64,000 nucleotides of DNA, taken from positions 107,074,001 through 107,138,000 of the forward strand of contig OZ024742.1 of assembly GCA_964016885.1 (NCBI GenBank), read 5' to 3'. This DNA comes from Eledone cirrhosa (Eukaryota). The notes under the pieces are model-generated. The model searched no databases and was not told the origin of the DNA. It saw nothing but the letters and a program-made list of their open reading frames with translations. The position numbers and the translations under genes are program-made. This document shows positions 3,131 to 64,000 of this stretch, one piece after another. The number at the start of each line of letters is the position of its first letter. Position 1 is the stretch's first letter.

Positions 3131-5420
3131 GTTTTTCTGTCATACTGTACATAATCATATACAAGTCAAAGCAGTAGATAAGTCATACTCTCTTTGTGTT
3201 TATAATGTTTTTGGCTTCAGCCTTTGACCCATACAGAAGTCACGTTTCTTTGCTTCCGGTTGCATTTAAATAATAAACACACTTATCTGATAAAAATTCC
3301 AATTATTGCTAGTGCAGTTTAGCAAAGTCCTGGAACCGTATCATAGCAATGTGTTTCTATGATAAATGTGCGGAACAAACAGACCAACTGTTGGTTTTAA
3401 ATCACTATTCTTGATTGTCTGACATTATATACAGCATCTAATGGCCATCTGGCTGATAGAGAGAACTGCCCATATTTGTTTTGCACACATAGAAGACATG
3501 CTAGAATGATATACACAGTGGCTTCATAATTCAAACATCCTTATTAGTTCTCTGATGTCACGCTAGCTAATTTTTATTCATGATTCACAAACACTGATCA
3601 CAGCTGAAATGAGGAACTTTAGAGTAATATTACATTGACTTGTATCCACAGATGCAATGCTTTTGCTCTAATAGCTGTGCAAGGGACACCAATTCCATTC
3701 ATCTGTAATTCACATATACAAGTATATAAATCTATTTACAATTTCTTATATAAAGAAATAGTTTAGGACACTTTGTTTTTGGTATTATCACGAGTGTTTC
3801 CTTATTTCCAGCAGTCCCTTGCTAATTTTTCTGATACACAAAACACACACACTCACTCTCACACACACACACACAGCACAATTTACATCCTCTTCAACAT
3901 ATTCAATAACATAATACACATAACTTGATTTTTTTGCCTTCAGTGCTCGTGGTATAATTTTTTGTAAGGGTTTTCTTATATGTGGAACTTTTTCAACACT
4001 TTTGCCAACAAATATATGTGCATATACATATATATTTATTTTTACACAGAGAGAAAAAAAAGATAAATATGAGCAATACAACATTTGTATCATCACAGGC
4101 ACATTTGTTTTATAGAAAAATTGAATTCTCCATAAGTGGATGATGTGTTTGTTTTCACATATGACACCATCAAAATATGTTTGTTTACAACACTGATATT
4201 CATAAAGAATGCATCATGACATGATCAACCTGCCCCGCACATTCAATCTTTGTGTGTCTGGTTTATATGTGCATGAATGCACTATGGGTTTCAATCCCGA
4301 TATGGCACATATCTTTCTTTTGATAATGAACATATTCAACATCAGCTGCATTCACTTTACCAGTATGGCAGTGCAACAGTTTAAAGCCATGCACCCTCTT
4401 CCCCAACTCTTCCTAAAAATAAATTTCATTTTCCCTTTTTCTAATTCTCAAGTCTTATACCGTTTTGTGTGTGTTTACATGTGCATACATGCATACACTG
4501 CGGATTTCAAGTCCAGAGCAAGGTTCAGTAGTTAAGTCACAGTAAAGATATTACAACTTATCTATGAGTATGATTGGTAAACACAACCCTTCCTCTCAAT
4601 TAAACCATACAAGTAAAATAAAGTTCAATCCCCGACTATCAGTAACCAAGACAGTTTACATCTGACACACTCACCACTGGCCTATAAGAGAAGGATTAAA
4701 GGAAGCATGATAATCAATCTATGAAGAATGGTTGAACTATTTAATGCCAAATCAATAATTAATAACTTCACTGATATGTTTAGTCATATGCTCTGTCTAA
4801 GGCATACAATTTTATTATAATAGTATGTTGCATTGGCATGCAGTCCAACATGTCTCTAGAAGCAAAAATGTGAAGTTGTGACATTCATGCCTATCCCAAA
4901 GGCAGTTGATGCAAGATCAAACAGAAAAGATGACATGGCAGATAGATTACATTACTTAGTTTACATTTGTCTAGCCAAACTATTAACATGACCCCCACCA
5001 CACCCCATCCTTTCCTCTCATATACATACACATAGCTGTCAACAGTAAAAGAATACTAACTACTATGCTTTTCTACAGCTGGAAAAGAAAGGGAGAAAAA
5101 AACAAAAAGAATGAAGGAAAATAGGAAAGGGGGTTTAGAAGGAATAAAAAGGGGAAGAAAGGGAATGAATGAAGGAAGAGAACAGTAGTTAGGTGAAACA
5201 AAACTAGATTACCAAAAGCTGCTAAAACAACTTCCATATTTGAACAGAATACCTATGGAGAATGGGAGGAGAGATTGTGTGATATTCATCCATTTCTAAA
5301 GAACATCAACATTAGGAAGTGACTGCTATATATAGGAATGAATACTAAACCCAAATCCACTAAGAAATTCTCTTTCTTGCATTCTTCACCTACTACTACT
5401 CCGAAAATAATTCTAATAAT

Positions 5421-5609
5421 TGTTTCTACTTTTGGCACAAGGCCAGCAATTACCCAGTGTATTACTGGTACTTTATTTTATCAACTCCGTAAGGATGAAA
5501 GGCAAAGTTAACCTCGGCGGGATTTAAACTCAGAATGGCAAGGGCCGTAACTCTATGCGTCAAAGCATGGCGTCCGAGCCTCTACCGATACTGCCAATCC
5601 ACCGCCCTT
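5421..5609 (-). mobile_element. tRNA-derived SINE (family A), full length
   Basis: A box TGGCAGTATCGG, B-box-like GAGTTTAAATCCC and central GCCTTTCATCC...GATAAAAT domain. 15-bp TSD AATAATTCTAATAAT at 5406-5420 and 5610-5624. Confidence 0.9.
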
Positions 5610-5766: not shown

Positions 5767-5954
5767 AGGGCGGTGGATTGGCAGTATCGGTAGAGGGTCG
5801 GATGCCATGCTTTGAAGTATAGAGTTACGGCCCTTGCCATTCTGAGTTCAAATCCCGCTGAGGTTAACTTTGCTTTTCATCCTTATGGGGTTGATAAAAT
5901 AAATTACCAGTAATACACTGGATAATTGCTGGCCTTGTGCCAAAAGTAGAAACA
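5767..5954 (+). mobile_element. tRNA-derived SINE (family A), full length
   Basis: A box TGGCAGTATCGG and B box GAGTTCAAATCCC. 15-bp TSD ATTATAATCCTGACA at 5752-5766 and 5955-5969. Confidence 0.9.
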
Positions 5955-6059
5955 ATTATAATCCTGACAGAGCCCATTTTTCTCCAGGTATAACTAAACA
6001 CAGCTGATATCTTCTAGACGGACAAAGTGACAGACAAAGTGATAAAGAGAGATAAAAGA

Positions 6060-7660
6060 AGAATCAACCCTAGTTCTATACTGGTACTTTATATATCAAC
6101 CTTAAAAGGATGAAAGGCAAAGTTGACCTTGGCAGGATTTGAACACAGAGTGCATTGAGTTGGAACAAATGCCAGGACACTTTTAATCCCAACACCCTAA
6201 AGACTCAGCCAATTTACAAAATTAACCTGCATATGACTGGTACTTATTTTATCGATCCAAAATGATGGAAATCAAAGTTGAATATAAAGATATTTGAACA
6301 CAGAATGTAGAAAGTTGAAACTAAAATATTTATCCTATTTCTGCAGAATGGGCAGAGCAATGGACAAAATATTTTGTGGCATTTATTGATGTACCTTTAT
6401 GTCTTTAGTTCAAATCTCACTGAGAGCAATTTTTTCCTTTTATCCTTCTGGGGTGGATAAAATAAGTACTAGTGAAGTACTGAGCTCAGAATAATTGACT
6501 ATACCTTTCTCTTAAATGCTTTGTGCTATTTGGTAATGGACCTTTACGCTTCAACTTTCTTCACCTCCTCCTGGGCTCAATGAAATAAATGCTAGTCAAG
6601 TACTTGTGCCCTAATATCAATAATTTTCTTTAACATAGCATTTATTTCATTAAGCCCAGAAGAGGAAGAAAGTTGACTTTGCAAGAATTAGAATTCAAAG
6701 TGTAAAGAACCATTACTAAATACCACAAAGCATTAGGTTATATGCTCCAAGTCAATTCAATTTCCCCAGTATTCAACTGGTATATATTTTATTAACCCCA
6801 GAAGGATAACGACCAAAGTTGACCACAGCATGATTTTATTAAGAATGTACAAAACAATAATAATTGTTTCTATTTTAGGCACAAGGCCAGCAATTACCCA
6901 GTACATTACTGGTACTTTATGTTATCGACCCCGTAAGGATGAAAGGCAAAGTTAACCTCGACGGGATTTGAACTCAAACCGTAAAGGGATGTAACTATGC
7001 TAGAAAGCATGGCGTCCAACCCTCTACTGATACTGCCAATTCACCGCCCTCAAAACAATAATAATAATAAAGGTAAAAGTTTCTAATTTAGGCATAAGGC
7101 CAGCAATTTTAGGGGAAGGGAAAGTCAAATTAACCCCAATACTTAACTGGTTTTTTATTGATCCTGGAATGATAGAAGGCAACGTTGACCTCAGCAGGAT
7201 TTGAACTCGAAAGGTAAAGAAAGCTAGATATTGATTTCTAATTTAGGCACAAGACCATCAAATTTGAGGGAAAAGCAAAATTGATTAAATTAACCCCAGT
7301 ACTTGACTGGTAACTTTATTTTGTTGACCCTGGAAGGATGAAAGGCAAAGGAGTCCACAAGCAGGATTTGAACTCAGAATGTAAAGAACCAGAACAAATA
7401 CTGCAATGGCATTTTATTTGATGCTTAACCAATTCTGCCAACCCAGCACGCTTAATTCTTGCTAACATTGCAACAAGGCCAGCAATGTGGGGAAAGAAGA
7501 AAGCCGATTATATTGACCTCATGTAGTAGACTGGTACTTTATCAATGTCATAAGGGTGAAAAACAAAGCTGACCTCAGTGAGATTTGAACCTAGAATGTA
7601 ATGAGCTGGAGCTAAATATTGCAAAGCAAATGCTCTAACGATAATATTATCTGAAAACCT
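6060..7660. mobile_element. Dense cluster of SINE family A copies and fragments, mostly minus strand
   Basis: Repeated GGTACTTTATTTTATCGACCC...GGATGAAAGGCAAAGTTGACCT..GGATTTGAACTC blocks. A young copy at 6865-7050 has TSD CAAAACAATAATAAT (6850-6864 and 7051-7065). Confidence 0.85.
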
Positions 7661-24540: not shown

Positions 24541-25215
24541 TAATGCTAAAGAGTAAACATAATTCTTAGCCAGTAACATGTTAATTTCAAGAGCAGTGTA
24601 TGACAAAGCTGGAACTTTAAATTACAGGTACAATCAAGTCAATGGGATTCCAAACAATTTCCACCTACCCAATTTCACTTACATAGTCAACTCAAGGCTA
24701 TGATAAATAGCACTTACCCAAGATGCCACGAAGTGGGATTGAACCACAGAACTAACGATGGTGAAGTGAACATCTTAAACATTCACCCACGGTGAATCTA
24801 CACACAACAAAACACAAATATCTATGTCAGTGCATACACATACTTCCATTATTTTATTTTCCACTTAGACACTGACAAGTTATTTCTTGTTTCTCATATT
24901 GAAACAGTGATTACTAATAGGCCATGATATGGCAATATGTTTCTTCCACAGTGACAAATACAGCCATCCTTTCTCCCCCACCCCCTCAGTTTGTGACTAT
25001 TGGGGTGTAGCCACTACGAAGTTGCAATAGCTACAGGTGAATGCCAAAGAAAGTTTGCAATTATATGGGCGTGACATATACCTTATTAAATAAATGAAGT
25101 ATCAGAAATACAATTAAAAAAATTGTCTAACCCATGCTAGCGTGGAAGATAGACGTTAAACGATGATGATGATGACACACCAGAAAAACATCTTTCTACA
25201 GGTTAATAATTTGAA

Positions 25216-26296
25216 CCCACAATCCCAGTATTTATGAACCAACAATGTTTGACCATACCCCACAATCCCAGTATTACAGAACCAGCCATATCTTACCATA
25301 TCCCACAATCCCAGTATTACAGAACCAGCCATGTCTTACCATACCTCACAATCCCAGTATTATAGAACCAGCCATGTCTTACCATACCCCACAATCCCAG
25401 TATTACAGAACCAGCCATATCTTACCATATCCCACAATCCCAGTATTACAGAACCAGCCATGTCTTACCATATCCCACAATCCCAGTATTAAAGAACCAG
25501 CCATGTCTTACCATACCCCACCATCCCATTATTACGGCATCAGCCATGTCTTACCATATCCCACAATCCCAGTATTACAGCACCAGCCATGTCTTACCAT
25601 ATCCCACAATCCCAGTATTACAGAACCAGCCATGTCTTACCATACCTCACAATCCCAGTATTACAGAACCAGCCATGTCTTACCATATCCCACAATCCCA
25701 GTATTATAGAACCAGCCATGTCTTACCATATCCCACAATCCCAGTATTACAGAACCAGCCATGTCTTACCATACCCCACCATCCCAGTATTACAGAACCA
25801 GCCATGTCTTACCATACCCCACAATCCCAGTATTACAGAACCAGCCATGTCTTACCATATCCCACATCCCAGTATTACAGAACCAGCCATGTCTTACCAT
25901 ATCCCACAATCCCAGTATTATAGAACCAGCCATATCTTACCATACCCCACCATCCCAGTATTACAGAACCAGCCATGTCTTACCATACCCCACCATCCCA
26001 GTATTACAGAACCAGCCATGTCTTACCATACCCCACCATCCCAGTATTACAGAACCAGCCATGTCTTACCATACCCCACCATCCCAGTATTACAGAACCA
26101 GCCATGTCTTACCATATCCCACAATCCCAGTATTACAGAACCAGCCATGTCTTACCATATCCCACCATCCCAGTATTATAGAACCAGCCATGTCTTACCA
26201 TATCCCACAATCCCAGTATTACAGAACCAGCCATGTCTTACCATACCCCACAATCCCATTATTTCAGAACCATCAATGTTTGACTATATCCCACCA
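25216..26296. repeat. Minisatellite, 43-bp unit x ~25
   Basis: Consensus CCCACAATCCCAGTATTACAGAACCAGCCATGTCTTACCATA(T/C). The 43-bp period was checked between adjacent units. Confidence 0.97.
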
Positions 26297-27844
26297 GCCA
26301 GTTATTCTATTCTGCTATGTATTTCTGTTTACTGCTGTGATTTACACTCCTTTCTACACAAATCACGATTAGTTTAGATTGTTGCATTAGGCATAGTTAT
26401 TTGTGAAAACACTGCTAAGTTTGTTTTTTATTATCTTTTTTCCAAGTTTAAATGACAAATATTTTTTCAGTGACTTTCATGTGGACTCCCAAGAATGAGA
26501 ACCACTCTCATTACTGGGGGTTTAGGATTGAAAGGAATAAAAACAAAATCTAACCCTTAGGATGTATATAAGCCAACAAAAGGGCCACAAAATGATCCTT
26601 CAAATCTCACCCTTTAAAAAAGGCTACATTGGAAAACATCATATTACACACAGTATGTCTGAAAAGAAAAAGTGAAAAAAAGAAGAGTGTACTGGGAGAG
26701 TTTGTTGTGTAGATCACCAACACTAGGGAGGTTTTCATCAACACAACTGAACAGTCATTCTGACGTTTATTAGAGAGTTATAGATATATAAGTCCTCCGA
26801 GGGTATTTGGGTAGCTCCAAAAATAGGTTCTGAAGGATATTTATTAAACAAGATAAAGAAAAGAAATTTCCTACAACTGAAAATGCTGATGTAGGATATG
26901 GAAGGTATAAAGTTTAAATTTTAAGTTTTCTATTTACCTTTAATTAATTCTCTTGACCTATTTCTAAATGTTAATTTAAAATATTTCCTTGATATTATTA
27001 CCAAATTTTACTACAGGTGTGGTAGTTCTAAATAAGAAAATATGTAAAATAAAAAAAAAAAGGTCTCAGTATGGTACTTGGTAGGTTTAGTAGGTCATAA
27101 ATATCTGCAAGGGGTGGAGGTGGGATAGAGAGATAAAGAGAGTGTGCAATGAAGATAGGAAAATAGATGTTAATCTATTAATCTTAAAAGAATGACTATA
27201 AATATGGAGAAGGCTCCAGTAAGCAGAAAATAGAGGAGTGCAGCCTTTTTTATCAGATGAAGTCAACAAACATAGAAATGGAGTATGGGGCATGAGGCCA
27301 GGAGTTAGGAAGTTATAATAGTTAGCAATAGAGTTGAATGCACATGTAACTGATAGACAAGTTCCCTTTATGCTATCAACACTTTAGAGTGGGAAGGGTA
27401 GAGCAAGAAAAAGGTAAGCATGCATGGGTCTACTACAGAAAATAAAATATTGTATTATACCAGTTTCCAAGACAATAAATGAGTTGAGTAAGACTGCCTA
27501 AGAAATATGACTTGTACTCCACCTCCTGTTTAATTAATATTTATGGAGTTTGTGTTTAGCCATAAACCACAACTTGATGCTACATATGAGGTCATGTGGA
27601 GTTGTTGGTGATATCAAGATAATCTCTTCTACTCAATAGATATTTCAATGATTTCAGTTGTGTTATGAAAATCAGTCAAATTAATTACGAAATCCAGAAA
27701 ATGGTATCTCATAAAAACATACTACTAAAAGGAACAAAAAAGGAAGAAAACAGAATAAAATGAAAGGGAGAAAAAAAAAGAAGGATCAAGTGGCAAAAGA
27801 AGGGGAAAGTGACAGTCACTACACCCCAGTCTGAGCAATGTCTC

Positions 27845-44439: not shown

Positions 44440-44832
44440 AGTGGATTGGCGGTATTGGTAGAGAGTCGGACGTCATGCTTTGACGCATAGAGTTACGGCC
44501 CTTTCCATTCTGAGTTCAAATCCTGCCGAGGTCAACTTTGTCTTTCATCCTTACGGGGTCGATAAAATAAAGTCCCAGTAATGTACTGGGTAATTGCTGG
44601 CCTTGTGCCAAAAGTAGAAACAATTATTTCTATACTTAATGGCAGTGGATTGGCAGAATCGGTAAAGCGTCAGACACCATGCTTTGCAGCATAGAGTTAT
44701 GGTCCTTTATGTTCTGAGTTCAAATCCCGCCGAGGTTAACTTTGCCTTTCATCCTTACGGGGGTCGATAAAATAAAGTACCAGTAATGCACTGGGGTAAT
44801 TGCTGGCCTTGTGCCAAAGGTATAAACAATTA
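44440..44832 (+). mobile_element. Head-to-tail dimer of SINE family A
   Basis: Two near-complete copies with A/B boxes. The second is flanked by the repeated TATACTTAAT. Confidence 0.9.
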
Positions 44833-45562
44833 TTTTTATACTTAATATCCTATTTGCATTGTTGTAGCCCTGTAAAGAAACAGTTTTCTACACTTTCCTT
44901 GAAACTACAACATCCTCATAGATCTTAAGTTGATACCATTGGAATTGCAACTGGTTAACAATCTCCCTGTTAGACATCTGTGATCTCAGAGCATGGCTGA
45001 CTTCTGTTCGTGATGTTTGAGATTCAATGATTGTAACCATCTCAATTCATCTCGTGTGAACACCAACCAACACAAGTAAAAACTTAGTAAAGGAAGTAAA
45101 CACACACAAGATACCATTTGATCTGTTAGCACACACTGCAATACTTTGAAGCAAATAGGATGCTCAATAAAACAAAAATATCTCCATAAATTCTCTATTG
45201 TTTTTAAAAAGTAGGGGCAGTGAATTGATAGAGCCGTTAGAACATCGGATAGAATGCTTTGTAGTATTTATTCTGGCTTTCTGTACTCTGAATTCAAAGC
45301 CCACTGAAGTCAACTTTGCCTTTCATCCTTTCGAGGTTGATAAATAAAATACCAATCCTATACTGGGGTTGATTCTCTCTCTCTCTCTGCTCTAGAAGAA
45401 ATCAAATGTGTTCAGATGAGGAGGGATGGGCTCCACCAGGCTTAAAATGTCACCACAGACCCCTACAACTCCACCTGGAGCAAAAAGATGACTATCACAT
45501 GGTCACTGAACATGCTAGAGCTAGTAGCCAAATCTCCCCGAAATAACCATCTGGATACACTT

Positions 45563-59374: not shown

Positions 59375-60517
59375 GTGCAGTGACCAGATCACTGTTTACA
59401 GTCATTAGCAGCAGCCTACATGTGTGATTTCAGCCTCTATTTGCCCCACTAAGCTTACCAAGCTTACAAGATCCTGAAAAAGTCATAAAGCTGCCCTTCC
59501 TCAATTCCATCCACAGGCCCATAACTCTTGATGGAGTCACAGGTGCTGTCTTGGGCATTTTGAACCTGACAGAGCCCAACCCTCTCCAGGTTTGTCACAG
59601 CCGATTTCTTCCAGAGAAAAAGTGAGAGTGAAAGAAGGGCAATAAGAAAGAAATATAGAGAAAGAATTGACCCCAATACTGTACTAAAACTTTTTTTATT
59701 GGCCTCAAAAAGATGAAAGGCAAAATTGACCTGGATGTGAACTCAGAACACAGAGAGCTGGAATGAATACCACAAAGTATTCTATCTAATGTTCTAATGA
59801 CTCTGCAAATTCACTGTCTCATTCCTCATTTAGTTAAACCATAAAAAGAAAAAAATGTTTAAGTGAAAAAAAAAAAAACAGTATCTAGCAAGATAGATGT
59901 AAACACTAGATAATTGAATGAATATAATGTAACTGAGTGTTAACTTGGACAAAACAATACTTAGCTAAATTACATCTATCTTAACTAAGTGATTAGATTG
60001 AAATTGGAGTAATTGTCAGGTCTACAACATGATTTTAGTTGACAACAGGACATGATGGCAGGTAACACACACAACAATAGTGATAGCCACATTGCAACAG
60101 CTTGGCCAGCAAAATGATAGCACAACAGCTGGGGAAGTAATATAACATGCAACAACTCAAGTCATGATACCCACACACACTCAACAGCTGTAACAACAAT
60201 TACTGAAGCACAATAGTGATATCAGTGATAAACACCACACCACAACGGCTATTGTGATGTGGGTATATCACTGCCAGTTATTATAGTGTAGATAACACTA
60301 GCGGTTGTATTGTGGATTGAATACCATATGATGAGGATATCACTACCAACAGCTGAAGTGTAGGGTTGGATTAATCATGCTTAGGGTGTTAAGGGAAAAG
60401 GAGCAACATTTTATTCAAATTAATTGTATTTGTCATTCCAAAAACATTTTTTTTTTCTTTTTGAAAACTTTATATATGGGGCACCACAATATTTAAAGTG
60501 CTACTATTAGGGCATCA

Positions 60518-60880
60518 GTATCACAACTGTCATGGTCTGGATCACAACCAAAGCTGTTATGATCTGGGTATTAAAACCAAAACTGTTGTATTGTAAGTAG
60601 TCAAAGCTATTATGATCTGGGTATCACAGCAAAGAATGTTGTATTATGGCTATCACAACCAAAGCTGTTATGACCTAGGTATCGAAACCAAAGCTGTTGT
60701 ATTGTATCACAGCAAAAAATGTTGTATAATGGCTATCACAACCAATGCTGCTATATTGAATCACAACCAAATCTGTTATGATCTGGCTATCACAATCAAG
60801 ACTGTTGTATTTTGAGTATCACAGCCAAAACTGTTATGACCTGGCTATTACAACCAAAGCTATTGTATTGTGGCTATCAC
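60518..60880. repeat. Degenerate ~30-bp tandem repeat x ~12
   Basis: TATCACAACCAAAGCTGTTATGATCTGG(G/C) alternating with ...CTGTTGTATTGT variants. Confidence 0.85.
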
Positions 60881-62325
60881 AGACACATCAAACTATAAAG
60901 ACAATTTGCTCCAAAGGTAAAAGTAACTTTTTTTTATTTACCTAAATATCTCCATGTCAAAAGTATACTACTAATGTTCATAACCTTTGATTCATGAGAG
61001 GATCAATCAATCCTGAAATAATTCAAATATGTTAAGTTGTTTTTTTTACTGAAGAATCCTGGAAATATATTGTTTTTGTTTTACTTCTTGTTTTTCTACA
61101 TGGTTGAATTACTTAAAAGCTTATGCATTTAGACACATCTAGAACCATAACATCCAGTGTGACCTTCCATTTTTTAAAACAGCTGAAAATTATTTGAGAG
61201 ATTTGACAGCTATTTCTAACAGGTTGAGCAACCATATAAAGTCTCCCACAATTTTATAAGGGAACACAGTGTTGTTTCAAAGAAAAGCCAGAATTAAGTT
61301 AGGGAGATATATTGCCTTTGCTGCAAATTTAGAGTGGAATTAAAGTAAGACACATCTTTCATTTAAAAAAGGCAGTAAATTCTAAACAAAACAAATAAAA
61401 ATTCCCAAGTGTTGAAGGACATATTACAAAGTGAAAGAGGAAAACTGAGCAGTATCCAAAAGATTCTTTGAAAGATGTCAGATTAGAAATAGCTCCACAG
61501 TGATAAGGGTTTAAAATGTTGTATATAGAGGCAATCAGTGGATGGCTAACCTTAGCAGAGAACAGAGCAGAACTGACATGGGGTATCTTCTGAGAAACTA
61601 GAACACACTGTGTAAACTATGGAAAACAGAAATTATATATTATCTTGATTTCATAAACAAACACACAAAGCCGTATTTCATATGTATAAGAGAAAGAAAA
61701 GGAGGTTGAGAGGTGTTCAAACCCTTCTCAAGCGTATTACAAGCACATGTGAAGTAAAATATCTTAGATGCCCTTCCAGATACCAACTCACTCGTTTTTT
61801 AAGGTATAGCTTTTCACTTGTTTAATTGCTGAGCAGCAAGGTCATTTTTATGTGGAACATAAGCAAATTTCATCACTTACACTAGTAATGTCAAATAGAA
61901 AAAGAGACACACACACACACACATGCACACATACATAATGAGCTTCCTTACAATTTCTGTTTACCAAATTGACTGAGAAGCCATTGATCAGCTAAAGGCT
62001 TGCTCAAGGTGTCTGTTACTATAGTGTATCTTCTATTTTATAATAGGCACACCATAATCCTGCATGTTGTAAGAGATGAATAAAAGAATTGGCATCAGGA
62101 AGGGCATCCAGCTGTAAAGCACTATTATATCAGTCAATTAGTTGGTTAATCAGGTGTCAAATATCATGCTTCACATTGGAGAGAGAGAGAGGGAGTGAGA
62201 ATTAACATTTGAGTTGAAGGAGACTATACATACTGACCAGAGTAGCAAATAAAGTATGAGATAGAGACAAAAGAATGCTGGTGAGACCACATGCACACGC
62301 ACTATTACATTATATATATATATAT

Positions 62326-62660
62326 CATCATCATCAAGGTTTAGCGTCCGTGTTCCACGCTTGCATGGGTTTGGACGGGGGTTTTCCCACTTGAGGCAAG
62401 AGTGGTTGTCTTGCTCGCATAGGACTGTCTGGCGGGTTTTCTACAGCTGGATGCCCTTCCTAACACCAACCACATTTACAGTGTGGGGCTGGGAGGTTTT
62501 TACCGTGTTGCCTACACGGCCACATTTACAGCGTGGACTGTGTGTTTTTTTTTGTCGTGACACCTACACGATCTCAATTGTTTCAGCCTGGATGTTGTGG
62601 CACCAACATAACTTTACATTGAAAGGGGCGGTGTGGATGGGGTGGGGGTGGTTGGACGGG
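62326..62660 (-). mobile_element. RTE 3'UTR fragment
   Basis: Close homolog of 288-620. An opposite-orientation fragment lies at about 63130-63282. Confidence 0.85.
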
Positions 62661-63618
62661 GGGGACGGGGGTGTGGGGGGGTGTATATATATATACACAC
62701 ACATATATATATGTGTGTGTATGTGTAAAGTATTTCTGTAGAAAAGGTAAAGTTCTATGCATTGTACAGAGCTATTGTGTTGTTCATTATGTAATTAAAT
62801 ATATATATATAGTTGATAAATAAAACAAAACAAATACAGGGATGCAAAAACACAAAGTCTTATGAGGTTCATGCTTAGCGGAACTGGAGGTGGGTTCTAT
62901 GTTTCAGACGGAAGTCCTTCGCCAGGAAAGTTCAAATACCCATGTGAAAAAGAAGTTACAATAATTTATTGTAAATAAACCTTCTTCAAGACTCCAATTG
63001 CATTTTAAACTTCTTTTTCCTATTAAAAAAAACTTAACTTTCAAATATATATACACACAAAATTAATGTCTGCAGTTGATAGCATTTCTACAAAATATTC
63101 TTTTCACACTTTCTACATTAATGTATGGAATTGTAAACGTGGTTGGTGTTGGAAAGAGCATCCACCCGTAGAAAACCTGCCAGACAGTCCTATACGAGCG
63201 AGACGACCAATCTTGCCTCAAGTAGGATAATTCCCGTCTAAACCCATGCTAACGTGGAAGACAGACGCTAAACGATGATGATTCCTTTTTCTTTTTTTTT
63301 TTTTTTTTTTAAATTCGCTGCTTTATTTTAATACTATACTTATAGCGTGCATTAAATTCATCATTTTTATTTTTCAATCTATGGAGAAATATGTAAATTT
63401 GACATGTTTACATACTCACTGGGTATATTTATATACTAATTCACACACTATTGCTTAATCCTGAAGATAACCAAACTAGCAAGTATAGAATGGCTATGTC
63501 TTATGCCGGTTGAAGTTTGGAACCTTAGATAGCATGCATTATGTGTTGAGATCTTATATATATATGTATGTATTTATATAATGCATATATCAATATTTAT
63601 CTTTCAATCACTTTCTTG

Positions 63619-63660
<42 letters not shown>

Positions 63661-63702
63661 AATACAAATATTAATAAAATAGATGTTCTTTTGATCAATT
63701 AA

Positions 63703-63755
63703 ATTTTATTATACATATTTCAGAGGTACAACAGTACGTCCTCATCAGACAAAAT
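63703..63755 (-). ncRNA. Minimal type I hammerhead ribozyme motif (copy 1)
   Basis: Exact reverse complement of 63825-63877. Confidence 0.75.
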
Positions 63756-63824
63756 ATACATGACATACCCTGAGATGTTAAATGGTTAAGATTTAACATC
63801 TCAGAGTATGTCATGTATCATTAT

Positions 63825-63877
63825 ATTTTGTCTGATGAGGACGTACTGTTGTACCTCTGAAATATGTATAATAAAAT
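63825..63877 (+). ncRNA. Minimal type I hammerhead ribozyme motif (copy 2)
   Basis: Stem I AUUUUGU/AUAAAAU, core CUGAUGA (63832-63838), stem II GGACGUAC-UGUU-GUACCUCU, GAAA (63859-63862), minimal quasi-palindromic stem III A-UAUGUA-U, and an AUA cleavage triplet ending at 63870. Confidence 0.75.
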
Positions 63878-64000
63878 TTAATTGATCAAAAGAACATCTA
63901 TTTTATTAATATTTGTATTTTAATATTAATAACTCTGGAAAATATTTTTTGTAGAGTGCTTCCAATCTACTGTAAAACTCATTCTTTGATGTACTCATTG

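What the first reader, a model, noticed from the sequence alone, without database searches (positions are those of the whole stretch)
63652..63928. Young perfect palindrome carrying two head-to-head intact hammerhead ribozymes
Seen: a 277-bp inverted repeat (1 substitution, 1 six-nt indel, 7-nt loop) abutting (TA)n. Each arm holds an identical complete hammerhead core (CUGAUGA / stem II / GAAA / UH / 7-bp stem I) reading outward from the centre. Known: Penelope-like elements carry minimal type I hammerheads with tiny palindromic stem III that act as dimers, and their pseudo-LTRs are often inverted. Inference: this is a recent, non-coding, ribozyme-only Penelope/retrozyme-like unit. A read-through transcript would bury the ribozyme in ~130 bp of dsRNA (an ADAR/Dicer substrate), while transcripts starting near the centre could self-cleave on either strand.
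Basis: partly seen in the sequence, partly recalled or inferred. Interest (0 to 1): 0.75.

Follow-up and report, generated by a model that had tools for sequence, protein, structure and literature searches.

The report
Mirror-image stub of Hydra-Penelope retrotransposon
The palindrome with two self-cutting-RNA motifs is real, but it is the cut-short, mirror-image end of a common protein-coding Penelope-like jumping gene, and its long-plus-short arm pattern likely records one RNA being copied from both sides of a DNA break.

Summary
Observation confirmed: a near-perfect palindrome with one type I hammerhead per arm. The fold is supported by covariation across 18 sister variants (94% of cells paired, 14 of 18 pairs change on both sides). 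It is not a ribozyme-only unit. Inverted pLTRs, a one-sided tail and opposite-strand hammerhead pairs are published. What this adds is numbers: 88 of 89 classifiable pairs join one tailed and one untailed arm; 5' ends pile up at an Inr-like site 31 nt behind a TATA box; and 0 of 39 pairs mix such an end with a longer partner. Best reading (inferred): one uncleaved RNA, copied from two start sites, one per target strand. This copy lacks TATA and Inr and is predicted to fold the ribozyme away, so it is likely inert. The scan has noted such stubs before on other DNA, in this genome and others. Cleavage and expression are untested.

The parts
63620..63653 (.). Left (TA)n tract, the insertion target
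   Evidence: Sequence; 254 of 266 long or short family ends run into (TA)n or (CA)n within 4 nt
63652..63796 (-). Left arm: inverted, 5'-truncated pLTR copy (q276-424, q = position in L036:4808-5330) with the SHORT 3' end (no tail) and a 6-nt deletion at q317-322
63703..63755 (-). Hammerhead of the left arm; CUGAUGA starts at 63748, predicted cut between 63710 and 63709
   Evidence: cut site inferred from the consensus hammerhead fold
63784..63796 (.). Junction: 7-nt loop (element's own sequence) plus 6-nt microhomology shared by both arms
63791..64000 (+). Right arm: 5'-truncated pLTR copy (q289-523) with the LONG 3' end; continues to about window 64020, then (TA)n
63806..63811 (+). GTATGT, a splice-donor-like motif 38 nt after the family's inferred RNA start (inferred, untested)
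   Evidence: Sequence; similar motif in most sister families
63825..63877 (+). Type I hammerhead: stem I 63825-31/63871-77, core CUGAUGA 63832-38, stem II 63839-58 with C.C mismatch, GAAA 63859-62, palindromic stem III, predicted cut after 63870
63926..63926 (+). Position of the SHORT 3' end (q424), the first inferred reverse-transcription start
63927..64000 (+). Tail, about 97 nt in all, present on one arm only; continues past the window edge
63932..63959 (+). Small hairpin (ACTC...GAGTGC) about 5 nt behind the SHORT end; a like hairpin follows the LONG end at pLTR-ORF junctions of full copies

Best explanation
This is a promoterless, mirror-image insertion stub of the 3' end of a protein-coding Hydra-clade Penelope-like retrotransposon, likely made when one uncleaved element RNA was copied from two start sites, one from each strand of a cut (TA)n target. 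Shown: both arms match the pLTR of an RT/GIY-YIG element; family 3' ends fall at two fixed sites about 97 nt apart; pairs join one of each; 5' ends pile up at q265-269, 31 nt behind a TATA box. Inferred: that pile-up is the RNA's 5' end; a protein dimer nicks both strands; each 3'-OH anneals to an AU-rich site 5 nt before a small hairpin; both cDNAs run toward the RNA's 5' end, the one from the long site trailing; the two cDNA ends are trimmed and joined by microhomology, giving a head-to-head palindrome. The hammerhead rides along because it lies between the RNA start and the copy starts. In the parent RNA it likely cuts as a dimer or with protein help; in this copy it is predicted to be folded away.
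For: Parent element: L036 has inverted pLTR, direct pLTR, ORF and 3' pLTR on one strand; RT relatives at 35-45% identity; Hydra motifs. Long+short: 57 of 58 classifiable pairs in the first sample, 31 of 31 in a second sample chosen by another probe (p about 1e-25 against 50:50); 9 of 9 hand-picked sister-family pairs. 5' ends: 29 of 142 arms that start beyond q100 start in q265-269. TATAWAWR at q235 with TCACT at q264 in 62 of 96 arms spanning the region; spacing 31-33 nt in three sister copies. 0 of 39 pairs with one arm reaching past q255 have a partner starting in q260-280, against 20.3 expected (minimum 6 in 20,000 shuffles); 51 of 68 short pairs have one. The short-ended arm reaches further 5' in 46 pairs, the long-ended in 18, tie 24 (p 0.0006). 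Arms share subfamily variants: 170 shared against 25 unshared at q10-260. Two RT start sites bracketing the tail, extension of both strands, and no need for ribozyme cleavage were shown in vitro for an anole element (PMC11167929).
Against: No RNA data, so the RNA start, splicing and cleavage are all inferred. At this locus the arms differ at q303, a variant seen in one arm only in 4 of 5 pairs carrying it; in q270-418 common variants are shared in 17 cases and unshared in 55, so later mutation or two templates must be invoked. Gene conversion between arms could also make them alike. 18 of 107 pairs had an arm ending at neither site and were left out, and 59 of 166 loci showed no divergent pair. 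Pairing was by nearest outward-facing arms within 6.5 kb, not checked one by one. No TATA match at that spacing was seen in the distant sister families. No complete intact ORF was found among the copies inspected (longest open frames 750 and 636 aa).
Confidence: 0.65

Rival explanations
1. Same parent element, but the mirror arm comes from fold-back self-priming of a single cDNA or antisense template (as proposed in PMC3846280), the second arm stopping at the short site.
For: Many junctions are small palindromes or microhomologies, including this one; the element has short hairpins at q259-278 and q276-294; 24 of 88 pairs are symmetric within 5 nt.
Against: A cDNA primed at the long site can only give a second arm that reaches no further 5' than itself, and one primed at the short site cannot supply the tail. 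In 46 of 88 pairs the short-ended arm reaches further, by up to about 3.5 kb. It may still hold for some symmetric copies, this one included.
Confidence: 0.15
2. Same parent element, two separate RNA molecules, each copied by one subunit, with the start-site asymmetry set by the protein or by nick order.
For: Explains long+short pairing and the unshared variants between arms.
Against: Independent RNAs should sometimes pair an arm that stops at the RNA start with an arm copied from a downstream junction; 0 of 39 do. Rare variants are shared by both arms in 53 cases.
Confidence: 0.12
3. An independent non-coding retrozyme-like unit that spreads as a palindrome.
For: Short palindromic copies are common: 68 of 107 pairs have both arms starting at or after q255.
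Against: Junctions differ from locus to locus, so the palindrome is not copied as a unit; arms are continuous with the ORF-bearing element; no tandem units; TATA and Inr are absent.
Confidence: 0.05
4. Assembly or chimeric-read artefact.
For: No read or contig spanning the locus was available.
Against: Arms differ in sequence and in 3' end, flanks differ, and the same rule holds across 89 pairs and sister families.
Confidence: 0.03

Closest known systems
Hydra-clade Penelope-like elements, incl. Hydra-1_Obim (Craig et al. 2021, PMC8557442; read: abstract, sections 3, 11, 12, passages, supplement part 2 and passages)
   Same: C-terminal GIY-YIG, DKT, CxCx5C linker, CxxC and CxH, (TA)n target, hammerhead near the 3' end.
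   Different: Different ribozyme from Hydra-1_Obim; RWR for RWK; about 4 kb with a long 3' UTR, against generally under 3 kb; tail about 97 nt, against the 30-40 nt described for PLEs.
Inverted 5'-truncated pLTR with one-sided tail (PMC8557442 passages; PMC3846280 passages)
   Same: Head-to-head arms, tail on one arm, palindromic or microhomology junction, Inr-like TCACT with a TATA box in the pLTR.
   Different: Described there as optional or frequent and ascribed to endonuclease resolution or self-priming; here counted (88 of 89) and tied to a shared 5' limit.
Poseidon PAc of Anolis (Frangieh et al. 2024, PMC11167929; read parts 1-2 of 4, main text and start of Methods)
   Same: Two internal RT start sites that define the tail; both strands cut and extended; uncleaved RNA is the template.
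   Different: PAc start sites are not homologous to the target and lie inside the ORF; here both sites have AT microhomology to (TA)n and lie before the ATG. The parts read do not link the two sites to the two inverted arms.
Minimal PLE hammerheads (Cervera and de la Pena 2014, PMC4209133; read parts 1-2 of 4)
   Same: Type I, long stem II, palindromic stem III, predicted dimer; dual motifs 100-700 bp apart on opposite strands already reported.
   Different: Here stem II has a conserved C.C or C.U mismatch at its fourth position (76 of 83 hits) and stem I is longer (7 bp).
Metazoan non-LTR retrozymes (Li, Clavereau and Pollet 2026, 10.64898/2026.07.22.740005; read part 1 of 5)
   Same: Non-coding, type I hammerhead, PLE-related.
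   Different: Defined as tandem direct repeats; this locus is an inverted pair and part of a coding element.

Membership tests
Type I hammerhead ribozyme | Core CUGANGA, GAAA and UH in order, joined by three stems | tested here: met
Type I hammerhead ribozyme | Stems kept by covariation | tested here: met
   18 variants chosen partly on stem I pairing: 94.1% paired, 14 of 18 pairs with two-sided change, 0 of 500 shuffles; all 7 stem II pairs covary and stem II was not a selection criterion
Type I hammerhead ribozyme | Match to an Rfam hammerhead model | tested here: not met
   None among 11 matches at E<=10
Type I hammerhead ribozyme | Self-cleavage at the UH site | not testable with these tools
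   Predicted fold is not the energy minimum as monomer (-4.6 vs -7.3 kcal/mol) or dimer (-13.8 vs -19.0)
EN+ Penelope-like element | RT plus GIY-YIG ORF on the same strand as the pLTR hammerhead | tested here: met
   L034, L035, L036. Pfam gave no hit on 6 own fragments; relative P0001 has a weak GIY-YIG hit, E 0.012
EN+ Penelope-like element | pLTRs in partial tandem and inverted, with one-sided tail | tested here: met
Hydra clade | DKT, CxCx5C linker, CxxC and CxH around the conserved E and N, C-terminal endonuclease | tested here: met
   against the description and the printed alignment
Hydra clade | RWK motif | tested here: inconclusive
   RWR in L036 and L213
Hydra clade | Insertion in (TA)n | tested here: met
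   254 of 266 ends run into (TA)n or (CA)n
Hydra clade | Generally under 3 kb | tested here: not met
   About 4 kb body in L036, including a 190-bp repeat insertion; a typical, not a strict, feature
Hydra clade | RT tree placement with reference Hydra proteins | not tested
   Reference proteins were seen only as text in a supplement; compared by eye
Naiad clade | N-terminal endonuclease, no canonical hammerhead | tested here: not met
   Endonuclease is C-terminal and a hammerhead is present
Non-LTR retrozyme | Tandem direct repeats each with a hammerhead | tested here: not met
   Inverted pair; definition
Non-LTR retrozyme | Circular RNA | not testable with these tools
   No RNA holder listed

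The most novel reading that the evidence does not exclude
Penelope-like elements insert by true twin priming on one RNA: a protein dimer primes both strands of the target at two hairpin-marked start sites, always one each, and both cDNAs run to the same RNA 5' end. That one rule would explain inverted pLTRs, the one-sided tail and the short palindromes, and the family's genomic copies map promoter, RNA start and both RT starts to the base.
Probability: 0.55. Interest if true: 0.6.

Novelty: new member of a known kind. Interest (0 to 1): 0.3.

Why it matters
The locus itself is ordinary: one of hundreds of likely inert stubs. The family statistics matter more. How Penelope-like elements make inverted arms and a one-sided tail is called open in PMC8557442. 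The strict long+short rule, the shared 5' limit and the lead of the short-ended arm give sharp predictions for the in vitro system of PMC11167929. They also suggest the hammerhead is not what defines the template's ends. I did not find the one-RNA reading in print, but the library lacks most subscription papers, including two older PLE reviews that I did not read, and earlier notes of this scan reach similar readings on other DNA.

Tried and rejected
Rfam scan: only miRNA-type hairpin and snoRNA models, all below gathering score. Pfam on 6 ORF fragments and PDB search with the RT fragment: nothing. Naiad assignment, my first guess: dropped after reading the clade definitions. Genomic trace of ribozyme cleavage: only two arms start at q368-369; 17 starts are scattered over q352-382, and in the second sample 4 arms start in q360-369 against 15 in q260-269: no pile-up. 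ADAR footprint: A>G 33 on 49 A sites against T>C 73 on 62 T sites in 233 arms, no excess. Expression: no RNA holder listed. Laying 3 runs of contigs (one sample): none spans the locus, uninformative. Bacterial promoter scan: irrelevant for this host and at chance level. TATA-Inr pattern search used a spacing one base too long for this family and was not used. Splice acceptor at q258 as the cause of the 5' pile-up: rejected, the pile-up is 7-10 nt further on and no shared upstream exon is seen. Conservation of the core within the family was not used as evidence, since loci were chosen on that core. No protein-coding exon was evident in the window among 6 frames over 150 aa, so host-gene read-through is unknown. 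A protein complex prediction was not run.

Full report
Observation. The palindrome is as described: arms of 107 nt (100%) and 28 nt (96%) around a 7-nt loop, one substitution and one 6-nt deletion between them, and a 31-nt hammerhead core on each strand that no shuffle reproduces. Rfam has no hammerhead match, and energy models do not favour the hammerhead fold.

Is the ribozyme real? A motif-only scan of 1.18 Mb of fetched loci and the window found 307 hits: 194 of this family and 113 others, of which 83 have at least 5 of 7 stem I pairs (shuffles: 0-1). Some of the 83 are variant copies of this family. In those 83, stem II pairs at 77-95% per position except position 4 (2%; C.C or C.U in 76), and stem III stays palindromic. 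On 18 chosen variants, 94.1% of cells pair, 14 of 18 pairs change on both sides, 0 of 500 shuffles reach this, and slid controls give 31-57%. RNAalifold recovers stems I and II unaided. Relatedness inflates the shuffle test, but stem II and III were not selection criteria. The fold is therefore under selection in the parent elements. Cleavage is untested.

What it belongs to. The 138-nt arm has 1206 first-look candidates in the 3.0-Gb genome, 40 scored; the 48-nt ribozyme has 298 exact copies and the next 49 nt have 400. Longer copies carry the arm at the 3' end of an ORF-bearing element on the same strand. L036 shows an inverted pLTR, a direct pLTR, a broken ORF and a 3' pLTR. The protein has RWR, DKT, YRDD, CxCx5C, YIG, CxxC and CxH, which fits the Hydra clade as defined in PMC8557442 section 11 and its printed alignment. 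The published Hydra-1_Obim has a different hammerhead. No complete intact ORF was seen in the copies inspected.

Two 3' ends. In coordinates q (L036:4808-5330; window = q + 63502), copies end at q424 (short) or q523 (long), 254 of 266 in (TA)n or (CA)n. Of 166 loci, 107 have outward-facing pairs; 18 have an arm ending elsewhere and were set aside. Of the other 89, 88 join one long and one short arm: 57 of 58 in the first sample and 31 of 31 in a second sample picked with a different probe. Nine of nine hand-picked sister-family pairs do the same. This locus is short on the left and long on the right. A small RCTC...GAGYGC hairpin follows each end site by about 5 nt (lead from note e1-8673755).

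One 5' limit. Of 142 arms starting beyond q100, 29 start in q265-269. This is the A of TCACT, with TATAAATG 31 nt upstream; 62 of 96 spanning arms keep both. PMC3846280 reports a TATA and TCACT in a rotifer pLTR, and PMC2377424 a pLTR promoter with a nearby intron (passages). I infer an RNA start about 100 nt before the ribozyme cut. Because these copies span the cut site and no pile-up is seen at q369, the template was likely uncleaved, as found in vitro for PAc.

The arms are coupled. No pair (0 of 39) combines an arm reaching past q255 with a partner starting at q260-280; shuffling gives 20.3. Arms share subfamily variants (170 against 25 at q10-260; q356C in both arms in 5 of 6 pairs), and within-pair distance is below the between-locus median in 18 of 19 overlaps of 200 nt or more. 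The short-ended arm reaches further 5' in 46 pairs against 18. Against this: in q270-418 common variants are more often unshared (55) than shared (17), and this locus differs between arms at q303.

Mechanism. Shown: parent element, two ends, pairing rule, 5' limit, coupling. Inferred: one uncleaved RNA bound by a dimer, both target strands primed at the two sites, cDNAs running to the RNA start, then trimming and joining by microhomology (6 nt here). Fold-back of one cDNA cannot explain the 46 pairs whose untailed arm is longer, though it may explain symmetric ones. This copy starts at q276 and q289, so it lacks TATA and Inr. A read-through RNA folds at -206 kcal/mol with near-zero probability of the ribozyme stems. 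It is likely inert.

Comparison and novelty. Inverted pLTRs with a one-sided tail, opposite-strand hammerhead pairs, low activity of minimal hammerheads except as dimers and two RT starts are all published. The family is a further Hydra member. The strict rule and the one-RNA reading were not found in the searches made. Papers seen: PMC8557442 (abstract, sections 3, 11, 12, passages, supplement parts), PMC11167929 (parts 1-2 of 4), PMC4209133 (parts 1-2 of 4), PMC3846280 and PMC2377424 (passages), 10.64898/2026.07.22.740005 (part 1 of 5; its supplements are closed). Earlier notes of this scan describe such stubs repeatedly; none matched this stretch by sequence or place. They are leads, not support.

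Verdict. Real feature, ordinary locus, new member of a known kind; interest 0.3. The mechanistic reading has probability 0.55 and interest 0.6 if true.

Noticed in passing
L031-L181 flanks (e.g. L125:2171-2241, L048:284-349, L061:1750-1810): At least six sister hammerhead families with the same stem II C.C mismatch and 90-100-nt tails litter the flanks; several are nested in each other's (TA)n tracts.
   Followed up: partly
L036:5111-5390 (window 63806 for the donor-like site): Donor-like GTATGT 38 nt after the inferred RNA start and an acceptor-like pyrimidine tract plus TAG about 18 nt before the ATG: the ribozyme and both RT starts may lie in a 5' UTR intron. One sister family has a non-canonical donor.
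   Followed up: partly
window 63815-63887: Stem I can be extended by about 7 more pairs past a U.U mismatch and a bulge; the left arm's 6-nt deletion removes part of this extension.
   Followed up: no
window 5415-5601, 5774-5959, 6859-7043, 44442-44844 and others: A 190-bp SINE-like repeat, also inserted in the 3' UTR of L036, has many copies in the window.
   Followed up: no
window 62330-62480 and 63132-63282: Inverted pair of another short repeat, 151 nt, 85% complementary, 651 nt apart.
   Followed up: no
window 60491-60895 and 25215-26377: Minisatellite arrays: a 25/29-bp unit array, and a tandem array giving long repetitive open frames.
   Followed up: no
L212:2911-5160 (-): 750-aa open frame of a sister Hydra family, lacking its N-terminal start in frame.
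   Followed up: partly
L215:6154 (-) and 6558 (+); L063, L047, L176: Unrelated hammerhead families, including another head-to-head pair and one with a 4-bp stem III like published Hydra ribozymes.
   Followed up: no
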